A stretch of 64,000 nucleotides of DNA from Pseudomonadota bacterium (GTDB lineage Bacteria > Bdellovibrionota > FAC87 > UBA2466), in NCBI GenBank assembly GCA_043718025.1, contig JAYSWN010000068.1, positions 32,001-96,000 on the forward strand, given 5' to 3'. Below the pieces are notes generated by a model. That model saw nothing but the letters and a program-made list of their open reading frames with translations, was not told where the DNA came from and made no database searches. Made by a program: the position numbers and the translations under genes. This document shows, one piece after another, positions 6 through 32,329 of this stretch; the stretch's first letter is position 1, and the number at the start of each line of letters is the position of its first letter.

Positions 6-1826
6 ATGTCTTTGACGTGTGAAACCAAAGGGCCATACCTCCGGGTTTGGTTTGACACTCCCAATTCTGAAATTAATATTTTCGACCATCCTACCGCTGA
101 AGCACTAACCAAAATTTTGGCAATCGTTGACCCTAGGATTCACAAAGCGGTTCTGTTTCTTTCCAGCAAACCGGCAAGTTACATCAACGGAGTTGGGCTG
201 CTTTTGGCCAGCGCAATTAAGAACGCCGACGAGGCGATTAAGTTAACCGCACCCACTCGCCAGGCCTATCTAGCGGTTAAAAATTGCATTGTTCCAACGG
301 TGGCCGTGGTCAAGGGCAGCTGCTTTGGATGCGGAGTTGAATTCATTTCACATTGCACGTACCGGGTGGCCGTCGAATCATTAGAAACTACTTTCTACAT
401 GACAGAAATTCCTGAATACATTTTTGTTCCTGCATTCGGAGGCACTCAGCTTCTTCCCCCCCTGGTGGGCTTAGAGAAAGCTACCGATCTGATTTTGTGG
501 GGTGAAAAGTGGGACACGCCTACCGCGAAGAGATTTGGTCTGCTCAATGAAACTGTCCCTCTGCTGAATTGGGAACGAAATTTAGAAAAACTTTTGCCAA
601 AACTAATCGAAAAAAAAATGGAGAGAAAGAAAGCGCCGAAGAAGACGCACGAGTCTTTGTGGACCAAGACCGAAGGGCGCATTCTTTCGTTACCGCCTTC
701 CTACCAAAAACCGTATCATGACGCCTATCACCTACTCCAGATTGGCGCGGCGGCTGACGCTTTTAACGAACTCACTTCGCGACGAGAACTTAAGGCGTCG
801 ATGGAAAGCGTGATGCGAAACGAGAGCAAGATGGCGCTCTCATTTTTCTTTGTGCGACAGTCTGCTCGCCTGATTGCAGAAAAAGGGCGCCTCGATAACC
901 AACGGGCAATTCTAAATCTGCGATTGCCCAAGGCCGCTATGGCTTGGGGCAGGTCATTGGTAAACCAGGATCCCGAGAGCTTTAGCTTCAAACTTCAGAG
1001 TTACGTGCCCGGCCGGGCGGCTGGCGTTTTTCTTGAAACCGGAAACAGTGAGTCCATTCCCTTCTACGTAGGTAGCGCTCCTTTAAACCAAAGGCGAAAC
1101 GAAGTTCCCCGCCACGGCGTTTACTGGCCCGGCTATCAGAGCCAATGCAAACTGGTCGAGATCCGCAACGTGGTTTCACCCTTGGCCCGGGCCGAGGTGG
1201 CGTTTTGTTTCCATAAAATGGGTTTTACGACGGTAGTTTCCCACGGCGAAGGGGGATTTTTTCTAGACGAGCTGTGGAAAAATACGGTTGGGGGGTTGGC
1301 GTCTCTTTGTGAGCATTCGGTCTCTCCTGAGGAGGTCATCGAATCGCTGTGCGATTTTGGCTTCCTTGATTTTCCGGCAACTTGGGCCAAGCGCTTTGGA
1401 ACATCGCTTACTTCATCCATTTCAAGGGCGGCGGCCGGCAATCAGAGGAAGGATCCACAAACCGGAGACAAGGTGCGGGCTTGGGCGGAGCGTTTGCAAA
1501 AGTCTCCGCGGCAGGTCGCCAAGACGGGAACCAGCATTAACCCAATTGTCGTTAAAACCCTCGTGGCCTGGTGGATGAGTGTTGTGGTGAAAACGTTCTC
1601 GGATTCAAAGATCGCCCATTTGGCGTTTGCCGATGTGGCGGCCCGCGAAATGTTGGGTTTCCCCCTGTCGCACTTAAGTCTTTCGCGTTTTGCTACCAAG
1701 AAATGGCTTAGAAGCGAGGTGCTGGCTTCGCATGAAGTGCTAGGGCAATTGCCGCCGGAAGTGGCTGACCCTCTTCGCTATTACACTGATTTCGAAACGG
1801 TGCGATCGCCGCGTCAGAGATCGTGA
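6..1826 (+). CDS. Enoyl-CoA hydratase/isomerase (crotonase) domain protein with FadB/FadJ-like architecture and a degenerate C-terminal dehydrogenase region
   Basis: PTVAVVKGSCFGCGVEF...MTE...PAFGGTQLLPPLVG matches the crotonase core of FadJ/FadB, with both catalytic Glu kept. Later LVEI and GGFFLD remnants resemble 3-hydroxyacyl-CoA dehydrogenase, but there is no GxGxxG. Confidence 0.75.
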   Translation: MSLTCETKGPYLRVWFDTPNSEINIFDHPTAEALTKILAIVDPRIHKAVLFLSSKPASYINGVGLLLASAIKNADEAIKLTAPTRQAYLAVKNCIVPTVAVVKGSCFGCGVEFISHCTYRVAVESLETTFYMTEIPEYIFVPAFGGTQLLPPLVGLEKATDLILWGEKWDTPTAKRFGLLNETVPLLNWERNLEKLLPKLIEKKMERKKAPKKTHESLWTKTEGRILSLPPSYQKPYHDAYHLLQIGAAADAFNELTSRRELKASMESVMRNESKMALSFFFVRQSARLIAEKGRLDNQRAILNLRLPKAAMAWGRSLVNQDPESFSFKLQSYVPGRAAGVFLETGNSESIPFYVGSAPLNQRRNEVPRHGVYWPGYQSQCKLVEIRNVVSPLARAEVAFCFHKMGFTTVVSHGEGGFFLDELWKNTVGGLASLCEHSVSPEEVIESLCDFGFLDFPATWAKRFGTSLTSSISRAAAGNQRKDPQTGDKVRAWAERLQKSPRQVAKTGTSINPIVVKTLVAWWMSVVVKTFSDSKIAHLAFADVAAREMLGFPLSHLSLSRFATKKWLRSEVLASHEVLGQLPPEVADPLRYYTDFETVRSPRQRS

Positions 1827-1883: not shown

Positions 1884-4800
1884 GTGTTACAGCAAACCAC
1901 CGATACTGCGCAGGAAACTCTCCCTGCACTTGGCGAAAATCTTTCGCTGATGTGGGAGAGAATTTCCCGTTTCGCGCAATCTGATCCTAAAAGAGTCGCT
2001 TTGAGCCGTCTTTCGGCTCGCGGCGGTGAATTTACTGAAGACACTATCACCTACGGAAAATTGGAGCACGAAGCTCTCTCATTGGCGGTCTACTTTAAAT
2101 CGCGCGGCTACTCCAAGGGGTCGTGTGTTCTTATGCTCGTTGAAGACCCCATTGATTTTGTCACCACACTTCTGGGGTTAACCCGGGCGGGTCTGGTGCC
2201 GGTTCCGCTTCCTCCCTTTCGCGGATTCGGGCGGATGCCGGCTTTTGAAGAGCGCTTGCAGGGAGTGGTGCGAGTCTGCCGGCCATGCCTCGTGGTTTCC
2301 GATGACACTCATTCGTGGAAAAAGAACAAAGACGAGATGGTGGCGCAGATTCCCTGCGAACACATCAGTCACGTTCGCGCTGAGTCTCTCATCCGCGAGA
2401 AACTTAAGGAAGATCGTGACCTTCCCTTGCCCACCAAAGACGACATCGCCTTTTTACAATTCACCTCGGGGAGTACCGGAGAACCCAAGGGCGTTGTCAT
2501 CACTCACGAAAATTTAGCGGCCAATCTAACGGCGATGGGTCTGGCGACCGAATTTCGAGCCGATTCCGATCGTGTCGTGTCTTGGCTTCCTCTCCATCAT
2601 GACATGGGCCTAGTGGGAGGCCTGTTATTCCCCCTTTATTGGAAAGTGCCCACCTACTTGATGTCACCTTTGAACTTCGTGGCTCAGCCATCGAGCTGGC
2701 TCTGGGCAATTCACCGCTATCACGCCACGATGACGGTGGGCCCTAACTTCGCCTATTCAGTGTTGGTAAAGCGGGCTCCGGACTGGGAACTAACTGGTCT
2801 CGACCTTTCTACATTGCGCTTGGCTTTCTGTGGCGCCGAACCCATCGATAGCAAAGTGATTACCCAGTTCAATCGGCGATTTTCTGCCTTCGGAGTCCGT
2901 TCCAGCGCCTTCTTTCCGGTATATGGAATGGCCGAAGCCACGCTCGCCGTAACTTTTCCTCCGTTGAATCAAGAAGCAGTTTATGAAAACGTGAATCGGG
3001 CTCACCTCATTGAGAATGCCGAGGCCATCGTTTCTTTACAGGATTCTACCATTCCTTGCGTTTCTGTCGGCCAGCCTTTGCCAGGTCACAAGGTGAGCAT
3101 TCGCAGTTTAGAGACTGATGAAGTGCTTGGAGATCGAAAGGTCGGTGAGATCGTCGTGTCCGGCCCCTCGATCAGTCGCGGCTATTTTGGTTTACCGCTG
3201 CGCTCTGGAGAATTGAAAACCGGCGACATTGGCTATCAGGCCAACGGAACTCTTTTTGTTATCGATCGCAAGAAAGATCTGATCATCATTGCCGGTCAGA
3301 ACTATTATCCCTCAGATTTGGAGCGTCATCTGGCGATGGTGGCTGGCATTCGCACGGGACGAGTCGCCACTTTCTCAGTCTCTAACGGTAGCGAGATTGA
3401 AGAGCTGGTAGTCGTAGCGGAACTCGGCCCTCATTCCTTCTCGCAACGCGATCAGATCCGACGCGAAATTGAAGGTAAAATTCATGAAACGTTTGGTCTT
3501 TCGGTCGCAAAAATAATTTTCGTCATGCCTGGCCGTCTCCCCAAAACCACAAGCGGGAAGATTCGTCGGAAAGAGTGTGCCGAAATTTACGAACGCGGCG
3601 GATTCGCGAACCAATTTACCAAAGCACAAAGGGCATCACTGGCGGTTAAGAGCGGGCTTCGGCGTATCGTAATGCGACTCGTTCGCCTCAAAGCAGATGG
3701 CTGGAAACAGGTTTTCGACCAGGTCATGGAAGTCATCGAGTATTTTGTGCCGCCCGCGCTTCGCCAGGCCGATGCCGAGACCAAACGCCGCGCCAACTTG
3801 GTCGTCTTCTTTGCCTTTGCGGTTTCATTTTGGGCACCGGTATATGGCGCCGTATACGCTTTTGTATTGGAACTCCCGGTTGTTGGTTTCGCTATCTTGC
3901 TCGCCGGGGTCGGTGGCGCCGTGGTGCCGATATTGTTGCGCTTCACCGGGCGCATCAACCTTGCCGGTAATCTGTTAACCTTTCATTTGTTTTGGATCTT
4001 GTCTTACGCCGCGTGGTACAGCGGGGGACAAGGGTCGGCCCCTTTGATGTGGATGGTAGCGGTTCCCATGGTTGCCATTTGCATGTCCGGAACGAAGGCC
4101 GGAGTCCATTGGGGCGTAGCCGCCCTGGTCGAGCTTTTGGCCTTTTTTTGTTTCGATAAATTGGGCTGGGGAAGTCCACATGAATTGAGCGTGGATAAAG
4201 CGCGCTTTTTAAATACTTCGGTACTATGCGGATTGCTCACTTTGATTACTACGCTGACGTTGCTCTATGAAGCGATGAAAAAAATGGCAATGCAAACGAT
4301 CGAGGCCAACAATAAAGCGATCGCAAAGGGCCACGCTCGTTTGGGAGCCGTTTTAGATCACGCGCCAAACGGCATTGTTACCGTGGACCAGTTTGGCGCA
4401 ATCGAAACCAGCAATCGGGCTGCGGAGCAAATGTTTGGTTTCACGAGCGGCGAGCTTAAAGGAAAACCTTTCAATTCTTTGTTGGTGCGGCTTTCTCTAG
4501 TTCATGGCGAAGAGACAATCGAGGTGCCGGCTTTTCGCGATCTGTTCAAATCAGGCGGTAAACATTTTGAGGCGGTGGCCACCAACCGGGCCGGCAGCAC
4601 CTTTGCGGTGGAATTCGGGGTGAGTGAGGCTGCGCTCGACCATTGGCGAATTTATACCATCATAATTGAAGATGTTACTGACCGTAAGCGTGCGGGTATG
4701 GAGTTGTTGAGGGCAAAAGAAATTGCGGAGGCCGCAAATATAGCAAAATCTACGTTTCTTGCGAATATGTCGCACGAGCTGCGCACGCCGATGCACGGTA

Positions 4801-5462
4801 TCATCAGCTACGCCACATTCGGTCGGCGCGAATATCAAAAAGCATCTCCAGAAAAAATCTCGGGCTACTTTCAACACATTTTAGAAAGCGCCCACCGGTT
4901 GCTTAGTCTGCTGAATAATCTATTAGATCTTTCAAAATTCGAAGCTAATAAAATGAGATTTCAGCTCATCAAGGCAGATTTGGCACGGGTAGTGGAAATG
5001 GTTCATGGAGAATTGGCCGGCTACGCTAAAGAAAAAAGCGTGGAAATTTTATTCGAAAGACCAGCCAAACCGATAGCCTGTGCGTTTGATGACGAAAAGA
5101 TATCCCAAGTGGTCCGTAATCTGTTTTCGAACGCGATCAAATTTTCAAATCCGCAAACTGCGATTAAAATTGAAATTGGTTATACTGAACTGCCGCAGCG
5201 TGGAGTCTATTTTGCAATCACAAATCAGGGTGTCGGAATTCCCGCCAACGAATTAGAACTTATTTTTGATAAGTTTGTACAAAGCAGTAAAACCCATTCT
5301 GGTTCCGGTGGTACGGGCTTAGGCCTGGCGATATGCCGCGAAATTTTGAATGGGCATAAAGGCAAAATATTTGCGTCGAATGACAATGATGGACGAACCC
5401 GATTCACATTCATTCTACCTGCACAAGTTGAAGTCCTTGCAAAAAATCTGGAGGCAGCATGA
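1884..5462 (+). CDS. Fusion protein: fatty acyl-AMP ligase (FAAL) + multi-TM sensor domain + PAS + histidine kinase (HisKA/HATPase_c)
   Basis: FAAL motifs LQFTSGSTGEPKGV, SWLPLHHDMGL, YGMAEATLAV plus insertion, KTGDIG, PKTTSGK; 5-6 hydrophobic helices with SGG..SAP..W; PAS (NRAAEQMFGF); H-box ANMSHELRTP, N-box NLFSNAIKF, G-box GGTGLGLAI; all in one frame. Confidence 0.9.
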   Translation: MLQQTTDTAQETLPALGENLSLMWERISRFAQSDPKRVALSRLSARGGEFTEDTITYGKLEHEALSLAVYFKSRGYSKGSCVLMLVEDPIDFVTTLLGLTRAGLVPVPLPPFRGFGRMPAFEERLQGVVRVCRPCLVVSDDTHSWKKNKDEMVAQIPCEHISHVRAESLIREKLKEDRDLPLPTKDDIAFLQFTSGSTGEPKGVVITHENLAANLTAMGLATEFRADSDRVVSWLPLHHDMGLVGGLLFPLYWKVPTYLMSPLNFVAQPSSWLWAIHRYHATMTVGPNFAYSVLVKRAPDWELTGLDLSTLRLAFCGAEPIDSKVITQFNRRFSAFGVRSSAFFPVYGMAEATLAVTFPPLNQEAVYENVNRAHLIENAEAIVSLQDSTIPCVSVGQPLPGHKVSIRSLETDEVLGDRKVGEIVVSGPSISRGYFGLPLRSGELKTGDIGYQANGTLFVIDRKKDLIIIAGQNYYPSDLERHLAMVAGIRTGRVATFSVSNGSEIEELVVVAELGPHSFSQRDQIRREIEGKIHETFGLSVAKIIFVMPGRLPKTTSGKIRRKECAEIYERGGFANQFTKAQRASLAVKSGLRRIVMRLVRLKADGWKQVFDQVMEVIEYFVPPALRQADAETKRRANLVVFFAFAVSFWAPVYGAVYAFVLELPVVGFAILLAGVGGAVVPILLRFTGRINLAGNLLTFHLFWILSYAAWYSGGQGSAPLMWMVAVPMVAICMSGTKAGVHWGVAALVELLAFFCFDKLGWGSPHELSVDKARFLNTSVLCGLLTLITTLTLLYEAMKKMAMQTIEANNKAIAKGHARLGAVLDHAPNGIVTVDQFGAIETSNRAAEQMFGFTSGELKGKPFNSLLVRLSLVHGEETIEVPAFRDLFKSGGKHFEAVATNRAGSTFAVEFGVSEAALDHWRIYTIIIEDVTDRKRAGMELLRAKEIAEAANIAKSTFLANMSHELRTPMHGIISYATFGRREYQKASPEKISGYFQHILESAHRLLSLLNNLLDLSKFEANKMRFQLIKADLARVVEMVHGELAGYAKEKSVEILFERPAKPIACAFDDEKISQVVRNLFSNAIKFSNPQTAIKIEIGYTELPQRGVYFAITNQGVGIPANELELIFDKFVQSSKTHSGSGGTGLGLAICREILNGHKGKIFASNDNDGRTRFTFILPAQVEVLAKNLEAA

Positions 5463-7048
5463 GCAATGAATTGCCGAAACTTGGAAGTGTCTTGGTCGTC
5501 GATGACGATCCCCGTAACCTCGATATCATCTGCCATCTGCTGGAAGATCTGGTGAAGGAAGTGGTAACCGCAGCCGATGCTAAGGAAGCCATTCAAAAAT
5601 TGGAAACTTTCGATGCGGACCTGGGACTGTTCGACATCATGATGCCTGGCATGAACGGTTACGAACTTTGTCAGTTGGCAAAAGAGAAATATCCGCACCT
5701 TAAAGTAGTATTAGTTTCGGCCAAGGCCTCTTTAGAAGAACGCATGGCCGGCTATGACGTGGGGGCGGACGACTACATTCCCAAACCTTTCGATCACGAT
5801 GAGTTTATCGCCAAAGTACGGGTACTCATTAAACTGCAATTGGTTGAGAAGGAGCTGCGTCAATTCAACCAGGATTTAGAAACGCGGGTGCTGGAGCGTA
5901 CCCAAGAAGTACAGAACATGTACCAGCAGCTTCTCTTGTCATCGAAACTGGCTTCGTTAGGTGAGCTGTCGGCAAGTATCGCCCACGAAATTAACAATCC
6001 CCTTACCATTCTCAAAGGGAACGTTGATTACCTGCGCGAAGTGCTTGAAAAGAAAGGCTCTAAAGAACTGATTGCGGTTTTAGACCAACAAGACAAGGCG
6101 ATTGTGCGGGTGGTGAACATCATTCAGGGGCTTCGTCGCCATGCCCGCCACGATGACGCGGAAGTCGTTAGCTTTAATGTGCACAAATCAATTGAGGAGA
6201 CTCTTTCGTTGATTCGTCCCTTGCTCAGTGGCGACAACGTCGCGTTGGTTACGAATTTATCCGCCGATTCACCCTACACCCGGGGGGTTCCGACGCGATT
6301 TCAACAAATTCTGATGAATTTGGCGACCAACGCCCGTGATGCCCTTAAAGGAGTCGCTGGAGCAACAATTGAAATTTCTACCCGCAGCGTAAAAGACAAA
6401 TTAGAGATCGCGATCTCAGATAATGGCTGCGGCATTCCCGATCCAGTACGAAATAAGATCTTTGATCCGTTCTTCACGACCAAGGCAGTTGAACAAGGCA
6501 CTGGTCTAGGTCTTTCGATTGTGGGTTCGATTATTTCTGAAATGAATGGCACGGTGCAGGTGAGTTCGTCGCCCAATCGGGGGACCACTTTCACGCTATA
6601 TTTTCCCTGTCTTCGCTCGGAAGAGGTGCTGTTCCAAAAAGAGGCGGGGAGCGGGGCGGCCCCGGCCGAGATTCAGCTTAAAGGAAGAGTTTTGGTGGTG
6701 GAGGACGAAGAGGTGATTGCCCACTTGGTCAGTCGCTATTTGCAGGACCTGGGGTTAGACGTCTCCACGGTACTTAATGGCGAAGACGGTTTAGAAAAAT
6801 TGAAACACGAAACGTTCGATTTAGTTCTCACCGATATGCAGCTTCCCCATCTGAAAGGTAACGAGTTGGTGGCGGAAGCCAAGCGGCTGGGACGATGGGG
6901 TAAAACTCGGGTCGTGGCGGTTACCGGACAGGTCGATCCGGCGCTGGCGCCTAAGGATGGAAAAAGAGGGGTGGTTGGTTTTGACGGCCTGCTTTCCAAG
7001 CCGTTCTCGAAAGGCGATGTTTATGCGATCGTTCGAGACCTTTTATAG
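5459..7048 (+). CDS. Hybrid sensor kinase/response regulator (REC-HisKA-HATPase-REC)
   Basis: VLVVDDD..FDIMMPGMNG..DYIPKPF; SIAHEINNPL; FFTTK..GTGLGL; second receiver VLVVEDE..LTDMQLP..LSKPF. ATGA overlap with the upstream gene. Confidence 0.93.
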   Translation: MSNELPKLGSVLVVDDDPRNLDIICHLLEDLVKEVVTAADAKEAIQKLETFDADLGLFDIMMPGMNGYELCQLAKEKYPHLKVVLVSAKASLEERMAGYDVGADDYIPKPFDHDEFIAKVRVLIKLQLVEKELRQFNQDLETRVLERTQEVQNMYQQLLLSSKLASLGELSASIAHEINNPLTILKGNVDYLREVLEKKGSKELIAVLDQQDKAIVRVVNIIQGLRRHARHDDAEVVSFNVHKSIEETLSLIRPLLSGDNVALVTNLSADSPYTRGVPTRFQQILMNLATNARDALKGVAGATIEISTRSVKDKLEIAISDNGCGIPDPVRNKIFDPFFTTKAVEQGTGLGLSIVGSIISEMNGTVQVSSSPNRGTTFTLYFPCLRSEEVLFQKEAGSGAAPAEIQLKGRVLVVEDEEVIAHLVSRYLQDLGLDVSTVLNGEDGLEKLKHETFDLVLTDMQLPHLKGNELVAEAKRLGRWGKTRVVAVTGQVDPALAPKDGKRGVVGFDGLLSKPFSKGDVYAIVRDLL

Positions 7049-7784: not shown

Positions 7785-8912
7785 ATGCCCGAGATGATTA
7801 CCGAAAGACCCCGAATTCTTCTGGTGGATGACGAGAAGGAGATCGCCCAAGTGATCTCTCGCCTTCTGGACATTCATGGTTTTGATGTCACTCTGGCCCA
7901 CACCGCGCAAGAGGCGTTGGACAGTATGGAGACCCAACTTCCCGAGCTGGTGCTTTCCGATGTGGTGATGCCCGGCAAAGATGGTTATGCGCTCTGTGGA
8001 GAGATTCGTCGGCGCTATGAAGATAAAGTGGTTCCCATCATCCTGATTACGGGTAAGGACTGGAGCGGTGAACGGGCTCGTGGCCTAGAAGCCGGCGCTG
8101 ACGACCTCATTACCAAACCCATTGATAAGAATGAACTGCTTAACCGAATTCATTCCCTCGTAAAAATGAAAACGTTGCACGATTCCGTGGAGTCGCAAGC
8201 GCACAAACTTGCCGCCAAGGGGGCCGAACTCGAGACTAAAGTTAATGTGCAAACCAATCAGTTGGGTCAGCTAAAACGGTTTTTCTCCCCGCAGATTGCC
8301 GATTTTGTGCTTTCGCACGCTTCCGAAGCAGTTTTTCAATCGCGTCGAAAAGACGTAACCGTAGTTTTTTTGGATCTGCGTGGCTTTACCGCCTTCGCCG
8401 AAAAGGCGCTCCCGGAACAAGTAATGGAGGTTCTCGGTGAGTATTATGCAACCGCTGGCGATATCGCCCTTAAATTCAATGGCTCGATCGGTCGTTTGGC
8501 CGGGGATGGCATGATGTTTTTCTTGAATGATCCGGTTGAGATTCCCAACCACGCGGTGCGAGCGGTGGAAATGGCTTTGGCCATGCGCGAAGCCATGATT
8601 CGCTTGCGCGGCCAATGGGTTCCCAAAGGGTATGAGTTAGACTTTGGCATCGGCATGGCCACCGGCCGTGCCACTATCGGTGCCGTCGGCTTTGAGAAAT
8701 ATTGGGATTATACCGTCATCGGGTCGGTTACCAACTTGGCTTCCCGTCTTTGCGATGAAGCGAAATCGGGTCAAATTCTCGCTTCCGAGCGTTTTTTGGG
8801 CGATACCGCCAATGGTTTTCGCACCCAACCGTTGGGCGTCGTGCCGCTCAAAGGGTTTGGTAATCCGGTTAAGATCTTTAACATCTTGGCTAAAAAGACT
8901 GACGAAAAATGA
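7785..8912 (+). CDS. Response-regulator receiver + class III adenylate/guanylate cyclase
   Basis: REC (LLVDDE, LSDVVMP, ITKP); cyclase motifs FLDLRGFT, AGDG, DYTVIGSVTNLASRL; RBS AGGAG. Confidence 0.92.
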   Translation: MPEMITERPRILLVDDEKEIAQVISRLLDIHGFDVTLAHTAQEALDSMETQLPELVLSDVVMPGKDGYALCGEIRRRYEDKVVPIILITGKDWSGERARGLEAGADDLITKPIDKNELLNRIHSLVKMKTLHDSVESQAHKLAAKGAELETKVNVQTNQLGQLKRFFSPQIADFVLSHASEAVFQSRRKDVTVVFLDLRGFTAFAEKALPEQVMEVLGEYYATAGDIALKFNGSIGRLAGDGMMFFLNDPVEIPNHAVRAVEMALAMREAMIRLRGQWVPKGYELDFGIGMATGRATIGAVGFEKYWDYTVIGSVTNLASRLCDEAKSGQILASERFLGDTANGFRTQPLGVVPLKGFGNPVKIFNILAKKTDEK

Positions 8913-9655
8913 AAGCCCAACGTAAATTGAAGTTAGCTCCGCCGCCCGCAATTGCGGGGCAAGAGATCGTTCCCTCTCCTGGCGAAGATCGATTCATTCT
9001 CGCGGCGGCGTTAGTGGTTTCGTTTTCTGGCGTGGCCTACGAACTTCTGCTCGCTACTTATGCCACCTACCTATGGGGAGGTAGTATTTTCCAGTACAGC
9101 CTGGTTTTTTCGTCAATGATGCTTTCGATGGGGGTAGGCTCTTGGCTATCGGACCGCGGAAAGGCAAGCCCCGGCGTTCGCTTCGTCGTCATTGAATGCT
9201 TTTTGGCCGCGCTCGGGGTTGTTTGTTTGCCCTTGCTCTACACGGCATACTGGAAAGGCTTTGCCCCACTGTTTTTCACCTTCGGATTTAGCTTAGCTTT
9301 TGGCTTTTTAGTCGGGGTTGAAATCCCTTTATTAAACCGCTGGCTGGGGCGAGAGAAAAAAATCTCCGAATTATTGTCGGTCGACTTTGCCGGGGGCTTC
9401 TTAGGCGGAATCCTATTCCCCCTTTTTTTAGTTCCTCATCTGGGCCTTTTTCGCGTGGCGGCATTGGTCGCGCTGCTCAATGCAATGGTGGCCCTTCTGG
9501 GATCCAGGCTAGCGATAGTGCGCGCCGCAACTTCAATTCAAAAAAGCCATTGGCTTCAAGTCTTCGCCATTGCGGTCTGTCTTTTTGGGTTGGGATTTTT
9601 GTTTTGGGCCAATGAGATCCAAAGTTGGATGCAGTACCGCTTCTTTGGTTTCTAA
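8909..9655 (+). CDS. Membrane protein resembling the N-terminal TM domain of membrane-bound spermidine synthases (no catalytic domain)
   Basis: SGVAYELL, SMGVGSWL, LVGVEIPLL and D..GG.LGG.LFP.FL.P motifs; about 7 TM helices. Confidence 0.75.
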   Translation: MKAQRKLKLAPPPAIAGQEIVPSPGEDRFILAAALVVSFSGVAYELLLATYATYLWGGSIFQYSLVFSSMMLSMGVGSWLSDRGKASPGVRFVVIECFLAALGVVCLPLLYTAYWKGFAPLFFTFGFSLAFGFLVGVEIPLLNRWLGREKKISELLSVDFAGGFLGGILFPLFLVPHLGLFRVAALVALLNAMVALLGSRLAIVRAATSIQKSHWLQVFAIAVCLFGLGFLFWANEIQSWMQYRFFGF

Positions 9656-9666
9656 AAAGGAAATTA

Positions 9667-11250
9667 ATGCTCACGCCTTTGCAAATATATCTTCTCTGTG
9701 TCGCGGTCAGCGGTAGTGGCTTTGTCGCACAGACCCTCATTTCCGGATTTTGGTCCACGGTATTCAACGAGGATTCAGTCTACTACTCCGTAAATCTGGC
9801 TTTCTACTTCGGTGGCATGGGGGTTGGCAGCTTGATTGCCGGCTGGTTCGGAAAGGCTACGGAAAAGCTGGTGTTAAAATTCGTTTTGGCACTTCTCGTT
9901 TTGGTTGCCCTCATGATTCCATTGCTTCGGGTAGGCGTGAGCTGGCTCGGCAATCGGGAATTCCTCCCGCTGTTCTTAGTGATCGCAGCCGGAATCTTTG
10001 CCGGCGCAACTATTCCTTTGGTAATTCGACTTCGAAGTCGTGGCAATCAGACAAGCTTGGGTACCGTCTTTTTCTTAGATTACTGTTCGGCGTTTGTCTT
10101 TTCGTGCCTCTTTAATCTTTTCCTCTTGATGCGTTTGGGCTATCTGCAGACCGCTTGGCTTTGCTTTTTTGCGGGGTCTACTCTTTGTCTACCTGCGGTT
10201 TACCAATTGGGAAAAAGGAAGGGAGTCTTGGCCTATGTGACCTCGTTCGTCGTGGTCGCACTGACCTCCTATCTCCTTTCGTCCCACGGTATGAATCCGG
10301 ATCCCCAATCCCGGGCGGAATTTAAAGTGTTGGTTGATCGTCAGTCGCCGTATCAGAAAATTGTGATGACCGAAGAGATTGGCCACGGGTCTCTTTTTCC
10401 CGGCGCAATTCACCAGGTGATGTACTTAGATGGCATGGTGCAATTCTCGAGTCTCGATGAGACCAGCTATCACATTTGCTTAGCCAATATTCCAATCACC
10501 GCGGTTGAGTTCTTTGGGGGAAAACCTCGGCGCGCCCTTATCTTAGGCGGCGGCGATGGACTCGCCGCCCGAAATCTTTTGGCCTACCCCTCGGTTGAAG
10601 CGGTTAAACTGGTTGAGTTGGATCCGCTAATGATCAGTCTTGCTCAGCATGACCCCCATTTAGTTAAAATGAACGCCCGGTCATTCTACGATCCCCGTTT
10701 TTCGTACGTCGAGGGCGATGCCTTTCGGTGGATTAAGGAGAGCGAAGAGAAGTTTGACGTAATCCTTCTAGATTTTCCGCACCCGAAAAATTTATCGCTC
10801 GCACGTCTCTACTCAGCGGAATTCTATACTCAGTTAAAGAAACGATTGACCGCCGATGGTTTCATTTCGATTCAGTCGGGCCCAGCCTTTTCGCCGCAGG
10901 ATACTGAGCGCAACACGCTTAGCGAAATTTCATCCGCGATTTTGGAGACGGTGAGGAGGGCGGGATTGAAGGCAGAAATTTATTTGAGTCCGGCGGATCA
11001 AGAGGCCTTTGTGATAGCCACGGCTCGAAAGGATTTTGACATGAACCGTTTTGCTACGGCAATGAGCATGACCGGAGCTGATGGCCTGGGTTTTCTTTGC
11101 CAATTTATCCCGTCGTGGAAGCGGCCGCCGGCCAGCGTTAATACGCTAAATGATCTTTCGCTCGTGACTTACATGGACCGTTGGAATCGCGGTGGCGCCC
11201 GAAAAAATTACGACTTTAGGGGGTCGCGTTCCGTTTTCTTACCCCGTTAA
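9667..11250 (+). CDS. Membrane-anchored spermidine-synthase-like aminopropyltransferase/SAM-dependent enzyme
   Basis: TM N-terminus, then SPYQKI, YLDG.VQFS..DE..YH, LILGGGDG, VELDP, GDAF, DVILLDFPHP, LYS.EFY. RBS AAAGGA before ATG 9667. Confidence 0.85.
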   Translation: MLTPLQIYLLCVAVSGSGFVAQTLISGFWSTVFNEDSVYYSVNLAFYFGGMGVGSLIAGWFGKATEKLVLKFVLALLVLVALMIPLLRVGVSWLGNREFLPLFLVIAAGIFAGATIPLVIRLRSRGNQTSLGTVFFLDYCSAFVFSCLFNLFLLMRLGYLQTAWLCFFAGSTLCLPAVYQLGKRKGVLAYVTSFVVVALTSYLLSSHGMNPDPQSRAEFKVLVDRQSPYQKIVMTEEIGHGSLFPGAIHQVMYLDGMVQFSSLDETSYHICLANIPITAVEFFGGKPRRALILGGGDGLAARNLLAYPSVEAVKLVELDPLMISLAQHDPHLVKMNARSFYDPRFSYVEGDAFRWIKESEEKFDVILLDFPHPKNLSLARLYSAEFYTQLKKRLTADGFISIQSGPAFSPQDTERNTLSEISSAILETVRRAGLKAEIYLSPADQEAFVIATARKDFDMNRFATAMSMTGADGLGFLCQFIPSWKRPPASVNTLNDLSLVTYMDRWNRGGARKNYDFRGSRSVFLPR

Positions 11251-12242: not shown

Positions 12243-12437
12243 CCTCTATTGTCCCACGACCTTCCCTTTTCCTCTGCTCTTCCATTAATATTCTATAAAT
12301 ACAATGATTTATCGAAAGAGTGAACGGGCGTATAAACTCTAGGCTGAATTTCTTTTTTGCTTTCAATGCTTAACGAAGCTGGCCCGCCGGGCCGTATAAA
12401 CCTTGGTCATAAGTCGCAAAGGTGGCCGCTGATCATA

Positions 12438-12453
12438 TGGCATCCGGTGTGCA
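12438..12453 (+). promoter_or_regulatory. Putative sigma54 promoter
   Basis: TGGCAT-CCGGT-GTGCA, with GG-N10-GC spacing. Confidence 0.5.
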
Positions 12454-12466
12454 CTCTATTTGTCAC

Positions 12467-13390
12467 ATGAACCGACAAAATTACTTTTCAGTACGACATC
12501 TTTTCTCTGTGGCACTGTGGTCGTTTTTGGCGATCGGGGTAGTGATGTCGGGCGGTTGTAACCAGGGGAGCAGTCGCTCCACTTTGGGTGACGACAAAAC
12601 CAAGGAAGATGTTTTCAAAGACTTTAATGACCTGGGCAATAATGGAAAAGGGAAGTCGCTCGGCGATATCGGGGCCGGTGGTGGTGTCGCGCAGCCTAAA
12701 CCTGGCAGCAATTCTGACGGCTCTTTCTCAGGATTAGACAAACAGGCGGTCAACAACGCCTACTCCGAAAACCAGCAAGTGGCCCCAACCGGCAAAATAG
12801 AGATTTTTACCGACGAGCTTAAGGCTCAAGCAAAAGAGATTTTGGCGCTCCAACGGCAAAAAAAGGACACGGCCGTAAAAAAACTTTTGTTCATGGCGGC
12901 AATGCTTAAGCGTTGCGGCGAAGTCGTGGCTAAATTCACCCCAATCGCGGGCCAGCCGTTGATGGGAAAGTGGAATGGACAAGGCGCTTGTAGTGTAAGT
13001 TTTGACGTGGCCGGAAACGGAGCCGGCGGTAAATACGCGGTTACCGGAGGCAGCAAGGGCACTTTAACTGCCGACACTCAGGGAAAAGGCGCGATTCAGG
13101 CCGATCCTTTCTCAGGTAACGTGGTGGACTCGCCGCAATCCGGAACCGGGCAGGTGGTCTATCCAGGTTTCTTCAAAACCAAAGCTGGGACGTCTGACTG
13201 TGTGCTCGGCATCCGCTTGGCCGAACCAACCAGCCCCATTCCGGCTAACTACAAAGAAGGCATGACCGTGATGGGTGCCTGCCTTCGTAATACGGCTCTG
13301 TTTATCAGTCCGGTGTTCGACAGGATGTTCCAGGACATGAATCCTGCCGTCTCTGAACAGCTACAAAAGAAGTTCTTAAATATTGAGTAA
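12467..13390 (+). CDS. Putative lipoprotein, unknown function
   Basis: Hydrophobic signal ending VMSGG-C, Gly-rich linker, further Cys residues. ATG 12467 preferred over GTG 12422. Confidence 0.7.
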   Translation: MNRQNYFSVRHLFSVALWSFLAIGVVMSGGCNQGSSRSTLGDDKTKEDVFKDFNDLGNNGKGKSLGDIGAGGGVAQPKPGSNSDGSFSGLDKQAVNNAYSENQQVAPTGKIEIFTDELKAQAKEILALQRQKKDTAVKKLLFMAAMLKRCGEVVAKFTPIAGQPLMGKWNGQGACSVSFDVAGNGAGGKYAVTGGSKGTLTADTQGKGAIQADPFSGNVVDSPQSGTGQVVYPGFFKTKAGTSDCVLGIRLAEPTSPIPANYKEGMTVMGACLRNTALFISPVFDRMFQDMNPAVSEQLQKKFLNIE

Positions 13391-13448: not shown

Positions 13449-14318
13449 CTACTCGAAGGTGCCAAAGGGAACCAAGTCATCCGCTACGATTTCGAAGGAA
13501 TTTGCCTTAGGTTTGGCTTCCGTGGCGCCGGATTGATGCCGCTTGATCATCAACTCGAGGTAATTTCTCAGATCACTAATTGCCAACCCCGCCGGCGCGC
13601 GAAAGGGCGGGGCAAATTCAAAACATTGGGGAATGATACGGCGCCCCTCTTTGCGAAGACGGCTATAAGTGGCAAGTGCGTTCTGAAAGGTGGTACCCGA
13701 CTCACGCGAATACTCGGGCAAAAAGCGGAGAACGGCCGCATCACAACAATGCACGCGAACCCACACCTGGGTATTTTTCTTTCCGTTGCGCACGTTATCC
13801 AAATCAGTAAGTTCGATGAAGTAGACCAGGCCTTCGTTTTTAGCGTTCACCGCGAGGTGCACCACTTGGACGGGAATAGCGCCGTCGCCGAAATCTAGTA
13901 AATAGCGCTGAATTTGGTCGCCGCCGATCGCAAAGGGCACGGCATCCCGTATCTCTTCGGGAAATAGGGTCTTGTATTGCAAAACGTATTGCGCTTTTTC
14001 CACTTTCCCGAGGGCATTACGAACAAAATCCTTAAATTGCATACGAACCCGAACCGCCGGTTCGAGGCCCGAGCTTTCCTCGACCAAAATACGACCGGCC
14101 GTGGCAAGCGTAAAGCCACCGGTGGAGCGTTCGATTGATTTGGTTACCCCTTTTTCAACTAAGCGATTCAAATCACCAAGACTCGAAGCGGTAGGAGGCG
14201 TTTGCAGGTCTCTGCCCGAAACTTCATAGAAAACCAATTTATCAGAGATTTCATTCGCGGCTCTACCCTCGCGAAGCGGATCTAAAGTGTCAGCACACGT
14301 GGTTACCCCGGCTTTCAT
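13449..14318 (-). CDS. Hypothetical protein
   Basis: Long ORF; ATG 14318 preceded by AAGGGGG; no recognised motif. Confidence 0.6.
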   Translation of the reverse strand: MKAGVTTCADTLDPLREGRAANEISDKLVFYEVSGRDLQTPPTASSLGDLNRLVEKGVTKSIERSTGGFTLATAGRILVEESSGLEPAVRVRMQFKDFVRNALGKVEKAQYVLQYKTLFPEEIRDAVPFAIGGDQIQRYLLDFGDGAIPVQVVHLAVNAKNEGLVYFIELTDLDNVRNGKKNTQVWVRVHCCDAAVLRFLPEYSRESGTTFQNALATYSRLRKEGRRIIPQCFEFAPPFRAPAGLAISDLRNYLELMIKRHQSGATEAKPKANSFEIVADDLVPFGTFE

Positions 14319-14343
14319 ATTGGCCCCCCTTAAGCCTAAAGGG

Positions 14344-14360
14344 TGCAAGCGAGGGTCCTA
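14344..14360 (-). promoter_or_regulatory. Weak putative sigma54 promoter
   Basis: Minus strand AGGACCCTCGCTTGCA: GG-N10-GC with TTGC, but the -24 box is imperfect. Confidence 0.3.
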
Positions 14361-31558: not shown

Positions 31559-31744
31559 GGTTCCCCTGTGCGGTTGGTGAGTTTTAAAAGTATTCTCTAA
31601 CCTACAAGTATCTTAACCAGGGGCTCTTACTTGCTGCGGTGTGCATGCCTAAGAAATTGAGGAAGCCTAAAGTAGCAACAGAGCTTCCACCTAATTTAAT
31701 TTAGGGTTAGGAATCTTCATTACCACGGCCATTACGGGGGAACC
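31559..31744 (+). ncRNA. ssrS: 6S RNA
   Basis: About 185 nt; closing stem GGTTCCCCTGT/ACGGGGGAACC; 6S-like blocks GGTGTGCATGCC, GAAGCCTAAA, CCACCT..AGGGTT; T-run after. Confidence 0.85.
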
Positions 31745-31813
31745 TTTTTTCCCTGCCCCAGCCAAAGGGTGTCAGTTTTTTTAGTCTCACTTTTTGCTGG
31801 CGGTTGTACCTCT

Positions 31814-32329
31814 ATGGAAATCAGTGTTCATTCGCTTCGCTGGGTAGAACGTCTTGCTGAACAAGAAAGTGGTGTTCAGGCTGGAGAGCGATCCCAGGTT
31901 GATCTCTATCAGGTGCGCGAAGACGTTCTACAGCTCGAGAGCTCCCAATTTTTGAAAGAACTTCGTACGACGCTCGAGACCCTATCGACCCTGTTCAATC
32001 AGCAGATGGCCGCTGACGAAACCAAGATTCAGCTTCAATCCTTATCCGAATCCCGCGATGGTTTTTACCTTTCCCGTCTAAATATCCGCATTCAGATTGA
32101 GTCAGCGCGGCCCGGGGTGATTCAGGTTCAGACTAAACGCATTGCGGTTGAGAACCCCATTCACCTTTCCACCGCAACTTTAGAAGCTAATTTTGGGGCT
32201 TTTGATGAGGTGACTTGGCTGTTTCTGGGAGAAAAAATTAACTCAGAGCAGGTGGCTCGCCATTTCTTAACTGAATTGGTCCAAAACACGATGCGGACCT
32301 CGCGTCCTTCAGCTCCTGCACAAAATTAG
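31814..32329 (+). CDS. Hypothetical protein
   Basis: ORF fills the gap after 6S RNA; no recognised family. Confidence 0.65.
   Translation: MEISVHSLRWVERLAEQESGVQAGERSQVDLYQVREDVLQLESSQFLKELRTTLETLSTLFNQQMAADETKIQLQSLSESRDGFYLSRLNIRIQIESARPGVIQVQTKRIAVENPIHLSTATLEANFGAFDEVTWLFLGEKINSEQVARHFLTELVQNTMRTSRPSAPAQN

What the first reader, a model, noticed from the sequence alone, without database searches (positions are those of the whole stretch)
1884..5462. Fatty acyl-AMP ligase fused in frame to a membrane/PAS histidine kinase
Seen: one uninterrupted 1192-aa ORF. It holds a complete FAAL (P-loop, WLPLHHDMGL, FAAL-type insertion after YGMAEATLAV, terminal catalytic Lys in PKTTSGK), a basic linker, a 5-6 TM domain, PAS and an intact kinase core. 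Established: FAALs activate fatty acids and load them onto carrier proteins, and are normally standalone or fused to ACP/PKS/NRPS domains; I do not know a characterised FAAL-sensor kinase. Inference: the cytoplasmic FAAL is either an enzymatic sensor (fatty acid/ATP occupancy or acyl-AMP turnover gates the kinase) or it tethers synthesis of a lipid signal to its receptor.
Basis: partly seen in the sequence, partly recalled or inferred. Interest (0 to 1): 0.9.

Follow-up and report, generated by a model that had tools for sequence, protein, structure and literature searches.

The report
Fatty-acid ligase fused to sensor kinase
A fatty-acid-activating enzyme is joined in one conserved protein to a membrane sensor kinase, inside a lipid-tailoring gene cluster that sits beside the same kind of sensor in a second bacterial group as separate genes, so the unit likely makes a fatty-acid-derived signal and reads it, and no description of it was found in the papers searched.

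Summary
The fusion is real. The 1192-aa ORF is intact, and seven other sequences (42-79% identical) carry the same in-frame FAAL::6TM junction with no indel. All 4 genomes of the genus have it. The FAAL keeps its catalytic and CoA-rejection residues. The fusion is not obligatory. The same cassette has FAAL and a same-family kinase as separate adjacent genes in G313 and in 8 of 9 loci from another phylum; G716 pairs the P450 alone with the sensor; 5 loci show no such sensor. The linker is the basic tail that unfused FAALs already carry. Best reading (0.5): an ACP-based lipid-signal pathway with its cognate in-membrane receptor, DSF-like in logic but not an Rpf system, with the enzyme tethered to the receptor. 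Enzyme gating of the kinase is a rival (0.2). The G1 box has Asn for Asp. No structure model was obtained and no ligand is known. The scan's index held only this same stretch.

The parts
1884..5462 (+). FAAL::6TM-PAS-HisKA-HATPase fusion gene, 1192 aa
   Evidence: four other full-length fused proteins
1956..3599 (+). Fatty acyl-AMP ligase domain (aa 25-572): P-loop TSGSTG, W234/P236/M241, FAAL-specific helix 262-268, F289, FAAL insertion, TGD, hinge R462, A10 Lys559
   Evidence: listed residues invariant in 8 of 8 fused sequences
3600..3743 (+). 48-aa basic linker; its first ~35 aa correspond to the basic C-terminal tail of unfused FAALs of this cassette
   Evidence: (186 nt from A10 Lys to F[IV]P in 6 of 6 fused DNA loci)
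3744..4283 (+). Six-TM integral membrane sensor domain, MASE6/7/11-like, short outer loops
   Evidence: (MASE6 in 6 of 6 rows, best E 1.6e-6, own row below cut-off)
4284..4688 (+). Signalling helix and PAS domain
4743..5426 (+). HisKA (His964) and HATPase_c; G1 box NxGxG instead of DxGxG
6..1826 (+). FadJ/TFE-alpha-like enoyl hydratase, both catalytic Glu kept (E112, E134), no 3HCDH Pfam match in the C-terminal half. Preceded just outside the window by a P450 (G000:C199 30392-31636) and an ACP (31636-31941)
5459..7048 (+). REC-HisKA-HATPase-REC hybrid kinase, start overlaps the fusion's stop; likely phospho-acceptor
   Evidence: directly after the kinase in L016, L099, L109, L126
6957..7775 (+). 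Sfp/HetI-type 4'-phosphopantetheinyl transferase
   Evidence: same place in 3 of 3 genus relatives and in G313
7785..8912 (+). REC-class III nucleotide cyclase with catalytic motifs present; likely output in this genus
   Evidence: after the PPTase in G001, G002, G003, not after it in G313

Best explanation
The protein is a fatty acyl-AMP ligase joined in frame to a six-helix membrane sensor kinase, and it likely starts the synthesis of a fatty-acid-derived signal that the attached sensor would detect within the membrane. Shown: the fusion, intact FAAL motifs, the operon, and the repeated pairing of the P450-ACP-hydratase-FAAL cassette with this sensor family, fused in one lineage and split in others. 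Inferred steps: the PPTase primes the ACP; the FAAL adenylates a fatty acid and loads the ACP; the P450 oxidises and the hydratase dehydrates or releases the acyl chain; the product partitions into the membrane and binds the 6TM domain; His964 passes phosphate to the receiver of the next hybrid kinase and, in this genus, to the REC-cyclase. The covalent link would serve to hold the enzyme at the membrane next to its receptor in fixed ratio; it is an upgrade of a coupled gene pair, not a requirement for sensing.
For: Cassette followed directly by a same-family TM sensor in 15 of 21 cassette loci examined: 6 fused, 9 split; 1 ends inside the FAAL, 5 have none within the locus. Split loci span two phyla samples. 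G716 has a P450 of the same subfamily (46-47% to the L099 and G313 enzymes) directly upstream of the sister sensor. FAAL CoA-rejection residues and the ACP + PPTase point to ACP loading. The sensor family is a promiscuous N-terminal input domain on kinases, GGDEF and MCP proteins. Some sensor positions are shared by both cassette-linked groups and rare elsewhere (P720 17 of 17 vs 14 of 90; V780 15 of 15 vs 8 of 90). Precedent for crotonase + acyl ligase + membrane kinase making and sensing a fatty acid: DSF system (PMC4504480, passages).
Against: No ligand, product, expression or activity data. 5 cassette loci lack the sensor; two of them sit among radical-SAM, desaturase-type and glycosyltransferase-type genes (my reading), so the cassette can serve plain lipid biosynthesis. 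The two cassette-linked sensor groups are not sisters in the quick tree; a joint clade is not rejected (p-AU 0.157) but not shown, and 7 of 90 other family members are closer to the split group than the fused group is. Over 2000 relatives of the sensor exist and the 7 loci of more distant family members checked show no P450 or FAAL within about 1.5 kb, so the family has no general link to lipids. No exporter or thioesterase is evident; release by the hydratase is an assumption. The shared residues may reflect kinship only.
Confidence: 0.5

Rival explanations
1. The FAAL is an enzymatic sensor: its adenylation or ACP-loading state gates the kinase through the linker, and in split forms it does the same as a bound partner.
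For: Linker length is fixed (no indel in 8 of 8, identity only 12-40%, synonymous sites saturated). FAAL and PAS/kinase are predicted on the same side of the membrane. The FAAL gene is the one directly before the kinase gene in all 15 paired loci. RpfC binds the synthase RpfF directly (PMC4504480).
Against: Nine split loci; G716 pairs the sensor with the P450 only (genome 71% complete, no close FAAL found). The linker is the ancestral FAAL tail and varies far more than either domain, and one fusion event would also give a fixed length.
Confidence: 0.2
2. The kinase senses something else (membrane state, free fatty acid or an outside cue) and controls or accompanies a lipid-biosynthesis cassette; the fusion only gives the FAAL a membrane anchor.
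For: Sensor-free cassettes exist in four Binatia-class loci. All unfused FAALs examined end in a basic tail that could bind membrane (16 of 16, net charge +2 to +8). The sensor family is widespread without the cassette.
Against: The downstream outputs are receivers, hybrid kinases and a cyclase; no DNA-binding regulator was recognised in the operon. The same sensor family sits at the same position in two phyla, and L021 has chemosensory genes there instead, which suggests the cassette is repeatedly tied to signal input.
Confidence: 0.2
3. The cassette destroys or recycles an incoming lipid cue (RpfB-like signal turnover) next to the receptor that senses it.
For: In Xanthomonas the acyl ligase RpfB mobilises free fatty acids rather than making DSF (PMC4504480). 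The hydratase derives from the beta-oxidation FadJ family. Tethering a sink to a receptor would give local adaptation.
Against: The ligase has FAAL hallmarks that exclude CoA and comes with its own ACP and PPTase, an arrangement typical of biosynthesis; the hydratase's dehydrogenase half has no Pfam match.
Confidence: 0.09
4. The fusion is an assembly error or a recent, neutral loss of a stop codon.
For: A stand-alone kinase start can be read at the junction in relatives (P0123-P0125).
Against: Eight fused sequences at 42-79% identity from different assemblies, 49-64% GC where DNA was seen, open across the junction despite saturated synonymous change and with no conserved internal start; junction bridged in two runs.
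Confidence: 0.01

Closest known systems
DSF (Rpf) system of Xanthomonas: RpfF, RpfB, RpfC, RpfG (PMC4504480, passages read)
   Same: Crotonase-fold enzyme, acyl ligase and a polytopic membrane kinase encoded together; fatty-acid chemistry on ACP; second-messenger output; enzyme-kinase contact has precedent (RpfF-RpfC).
   Different: Hydratase here is FadJ-like, 606 aa, not scored as RpfF; ligase is a FAAL with its own ACP and PPTase, not a CoA ligase; a P450 is added; sensor is 6TM MASE6-like; output is REC-kinase and a class III cyclase, not HD-GYP; covalent enzyme-kinase fusion.
Fatty acyl-AMP ligases (EcFAAL 3PBK; PMC8460268 sections 6-7 and passages; PMC12820801 section 3.1 and passages)
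   Same: Catalytic motifs, insertion, FAAL-specific helix and CoA-blocking residues; adjacent ACP.
   Different: Described partners are ACP, PKS/NRPS, acyltransferases and others; 'kinase' occurs 0 times in either main text. Below the curated cut-off of every NCBIfam FAAL model.
MASE6/MASE7/MASE11 membrane-associated sensor domains (Pfam; bioRxiv 2021.11.05.467447 passages for the MASE concept)
   Same: Integral membrane input domain with short loops, found before HisKA, GGDEF and MCP outputs.
   Different: Own row scores below the Pfam cut-off (12 bits vs 27.4); here it is internal, behind an enzyme; I found no ligand reported for these families in the passages read.
Kinases with Asn in the G1 box: VanS, ThkA, BA2291 (bioRxiv 2022.12.12.520123 passages; PMC4064291 passage)
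   Same: Asp-to-Asn at G1, compatible with activity.
   Different: Unrelated sensors; whether this kinase binds ATP weakly or prefers GTP is untested.
Synthase-receptor pairs for lipid-like signals such as CqsA/CqsS and LqsA/LqsS (recalled, not tested)
   Same: Signal-making enzyme encoded next to a six-helix membrane kinase.
   Different: PLP chemistry rather than FAAL/ACP/P450; separate proteins.

Membership tests
FAAL | ANL catalytic motifs (P-loop, YGxAE, TGD, hinge Arg, A10 Lys) | tested here: met
   invariant in 8 of 8 fused sequences
FAAL | FAAL-specific insertion | tested here: met
   aligns to the 3PBK insertion with a 2-residue gap
FAAL | CoA-pocket blockers W224, M231, F279 and FAAL-specific helix T252-R258 of EcFAAL | tested here: met
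   W234, M241, F289, P262-Q268 by the alignment, using a +1 offset between chain and paper numbering that I inferred
FAAL | Prolines of the alternative pantetheine pocket (P226, P107) | tested here: met
   P236 exact; P107 falls on the VPLPP loop, 1-2 residues off
FAAL | Curated family score (NCBIfam cut-off; CDD cd05931) | tested here: inconclusive
   best FAAL model 384 bits vs cut-off 600; CDD not available
FAAL | Loads holo-ACP and rejects CoA in vitro | not testable with these tools
   needs assay
Class I sensor histidine kinase | H box His, N box, F box, G2 box | tested here: met
   H964, N1079/N1083, F1128/F1131, G1143/G1145/G1147 invariant in 5 of 5 full-length fused proteins
Class I sensor histidine kinase | G1 box DxGxG | tested here: not met
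   NxGxG in the clade; at least 37 of the next 113 hits also have Asn (pattern match with some misses); active kinases with this change are known, so it lowers 'canonical', not 'works as a kinase'
MASE6 | Pfam PF20966 gathering score | tested here: inconclusive
   own row 12.1 bits vs 27.4; 6 of 6 rows match weakly, best E 1.6e-6; some relatives pass; Atlas names MASE6/7/11 on a share of members
Rpf/DSF system | RpfF-type crotonase | tested here: not met
   best matches are FadJ/TFE-alpha; no chain named RpfF among the best 60 of 90 solved matches listed
Rpf/DSF system | RpfB fatty acyl-CoA ligase | tested here: not met
   ligase has FAAL features
Rpf/DSF system | HD-GYP regulator RpfG in the operon | tested here: not met
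   REC-kinase-REC and REC-cyclase instead
Rpf/DSF system | RpfC five-TM input domain | not tested
   no RpfC sequence was fetched for direct comparison

The most novel reading that the evidence does not exclude
An undescribed lipid-signalling system shared by Bdellovibrionota and myxobacteria-related bacteria, in which a FAAL-ACP-P450-hydratase line makes an oxidised fatty-acid signal, a MASE6-like domain is its receptor, and in the fused lineage the synthase's catalytic cycle directly gates the kinase it is attached to.
Probability: 0.2. Interest if true: 0.87.

Novelty: new variant of a known kind. Interest (0 to 1): 0.64.

Why it matters
It points to a candidate ligand class for an orphan membrane sensor family with over 2000 clusters, and to a compact lipid pathway whose product is unknown. 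The natural fused and split versions of the same pair make the question 'does an attached enzyme gate a kinase or only feed it' directly testable, and one split locus lies in a closed 8-Mb chromosome (G1041). A FAAL in signalling would extend a family described so far as a loader for secondary-metabolite and lipid assembly lines.

Tried and rejected
Complex prediction of the split G313 FAAL with its TM-PAS region: no answer, score 0.00 in two runs, no evidence either way. No AlphaFold model was obtained, so no fold search was made; topology rests on hydropathy. No RNA holder listed. Runs X3-X7 hold only small shares and say nothing on habitat. Search for short TM-only relatives by word index found none of 8000 candidates, a sensitivity limit as searches show. 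A 121-row mixed alignment (A6) was misaligned and dropped. Order of events is unresolved: a four-gene enzyme tree nests split G313 among fused loci and rejects one fused clade (p-AU 0.014, LG+G4, uneven composition), but FAAL alone (0.125), kinase half (0.226) and TM domain (clade present, support 40/34) do not. The G313 break lies beside a T6G4 run in a 5-contig assembly and could be a one-base error; the 8 loci are split by longer spacers or a different overlap and do not have this weakness. An internal start giving a free kinase is not conserved. P0272, P0343 and P0358, with an internal TM domain, are kinase-kinase tandems, not FAAL fusions. Literature searches for the fusion or the cassette found no description: (5 listed, none on topic by title and abstract); supplement search of PMC12820801 found 0 HisKA/HATPase in 5 files, one cut when stored, and its domain tables may not be among them.
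Full report
Observation. The ORF 1884-5462 is one 1192-aa frame with AMP-binding, PAS, HisKA and HATPase_c domains. Its N-terminal half is closest to E. coli FAAL 3PBK among solved chains. Mapping the hallmarks of PMC8460268 (passages and sections 6, 7 read) gives W234, P236, M241, the FAAL-specific helix at 262-268, F289 and the insertion; these and the catalytic motifs are invariant in 8 of 8 fused sequences. No NCBIfam FAAL model reaches its cut-off. Averaged hydropathy and Lys/Arg columns over 100 relatives indicate six membrane segments with both ends on one side, so FAAL and kinase are predicted to be cytoplasmic together.

The fusion is real and old. Among 7997 scored candidates of 655-2086 aa, four other proteins cover the whole length at 79, 68, 47 and 47% (P0003-P0006); the next hit covers half. 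G002, G003 and L100 are open across the junction and end at contig ends. All 3 other genomes of the genus carry it and 0 of the other 30 family genomes searched match the TM profile. Residues 545-660 align without a gap in 8 of 8, the linker is only 12-40% identical, synonymous sites are saturated, and no internal start codon is conserved; the distance from the A10 Lys to the first TM motif is 186 nt in 6 of 6 DNA loci. Contigs of runs X1 and X2 span the junction without differences, though they may be this DNA's source. A record carrying the 68% protein is titled Bdellovibrionota bacterium (L020).

The operon. Just upstream of the window lie a P450 and an ACP, then a FadJ-like hydratase with both catalytic glutamates invariant in 9 of 9 and no dehydrogenase Pfam match, the fusion, a REC-kinase-REC, an Sfp-type PPTase and a REC-class III cyclase. 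The order holds, across broken contigs, in the genus and, up to the REC-kinase or the contig end, in L099 and L100.

The fusion is optional. A profile of the kinase half found stand-alone orthologues P0123-P0125 at 44-46% over 96%. P0124 lies in G313 in the same operon, with an added FabG-type gene and the FAAL stop overlapping the kinase start; that single break could be a homopolymer error. Independent of it, 9 of 401 genomes sampled from the phylum of G404 (reached through a record titled Kofleriaceae; Myxococcota by my knowledge) carry the hydratase, and 8 of these 9 loci read P450 (divergent in most)-ACP-hydratase-FAAL, then a separate hybrid kinase with the same TM family; the ninth ends inside the FAAL. 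G716 has a P450 of the same subfamily directly before the sister sensor, no close FAAL being found in this 71% complete genome. Against a fixed link: 5 of 301 genomes of the class of G401 have the hydratase (the tally includes unpublished G580, not examined), and the 4 examined show no such sensor in the locus; L021 has chemosensory genes after the FAAL (names from my reading of motifs). In sum, 15 of 21 cassette loci have the sensor directly after the FAAL, 6 fused and 9 split; kin among these are not independent, so this is two or three lineages, not 15 events. In the window's phylum sample the cassette is rare: 4 of 401.

The linker and the sensor. Unfused FAALs of the cassette all end in a basic tail of 30-45 aa (8 of 8, 8 of 8), so the linker is that tail run into the kinase's N-terminus. 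The TM domain has 2130 relatives at 50% clustering; in the best 150 it is N-terminal except in P0005 and kinase tandems. Among 52 scanned, outputs are kinases, a GGDEF and MCPs and none shows AMP-binding among the families listed. It is MASE6/7/11-like below cut-off. Whether the two cassette-linked sensor groups share one origin is open, and so is the order of fusion and fission.

Kinase. H, N, F and G2 boxes are invariant, but G1 has Asn for Asp throughout the clade and in at least 37 of the next 113 hits, while 7 of the 8 split kinases have Asp. Active kinases with this change are known, one of them preferring GTP (bioRxiv 2022.12.12.520123 and PMC4064291, passages). I treat it as active with nucleotide preference untested.

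Mechanism. Most likely (0.5) the cassette loads a fatty acid on its own ACP, oxidises and dehydrates or releases it, and the product is read by the 6TM domain, which drives the phosphorelay and, in this genus, the cyclase. Every chemical and binding step is inferred from gene content and family knowledge. The fusion then tethers enzyme to receptor. Gating by the FAAL (0.2), an unrelated input with the fusion as membrane anchor (0.2) and signal turnover (0.09) remain. The DSF system is the closest logic (PMC4504480, passages) but three of its defining parts are not met.

Novelty. Searches gave no description of a FAAL-kinase fusion or of this cassette; two FAAL surveys do not use the word kinase in their main text, and their full domain tables may not have been visible. 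The library lacks most subscription papers. The scan's own index returned only this stretch. Verdict: a real, conserved, apparently undescribed architecture inside an undescribed enzyme-sensor operon; less radical than an obligatory enzymatic sensor, more informative as a candidate signal system. Interest 0.64.

Noticed in passing
window 5223-5225 (N1114); P0123-P0128; at least 37 of P0130-P0242: A sizeable kinase subfamily has Asn in place of the G1-box Asp; possible weak ATP binding or GTP use.
   Followed up: partly
window 8909-11250: Pair of membrane genes, the second with a spermidine-synthase domain, follows the cyclase in the window, G002 and G003; may belong to the same transcript, link unexplained.
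   Followed up: partly
P0009 (1083 aa, Polyangiaceae by its source name): P450 of the same subfamily fused to a FAAL: a second kind of fusion within the cassette.
   Followed up: partly
L021 3593-17194: Cassette with a radical-SAM-type gene in place of the P450, followed by a CheW-CheR-CheW-MCP-CheA-CheB-like set (names from motifs).
   Followed up: partly
L016 1642-2475 and L018 734-1555: A methyltransferase-like ORF of about 275 aa is inserted between hydratase and fusion in G001 and G003 but not in the window or G002.
   Followed up: no
L028, L137, L138: Sensor-free cassettes among radical-SAM, desaturase-type, glycosyltransferase-type and metallo-hydrolase-type genes: an undescribed lipid cluster in Binatia-class genomes (names from my reading).
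   Followed up: partly
G000:C199 31636-31941 (just upstream of the window): ACP motif reads GFNSL (Asn before the pantetheine Ser) in the window, L099, L100 and G313, and DS in L021, L028, L036, L137, L138.
   Followed up: no
TM positions 701, 724, 750: Polar or charged residues inside predicted membrane helices: E750 in 9 of 9 of the clade, Lys724 in 5 of 9 and 0 of 90 others; candidate ligand contacts.
   Followed up: partly
window 12422-13390 (+) and 13449-14348 (-): Lipoprotein-like ORF without Pfam match, also next to the operon in G002 and G003, and an unannotated 299-aa ORF.
   Followed up: no
G000:C199 1485-2377: Fragments resembling a group II intron reverse transcriptase/maturase at the contig's start (by eye).
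   Followed up: no
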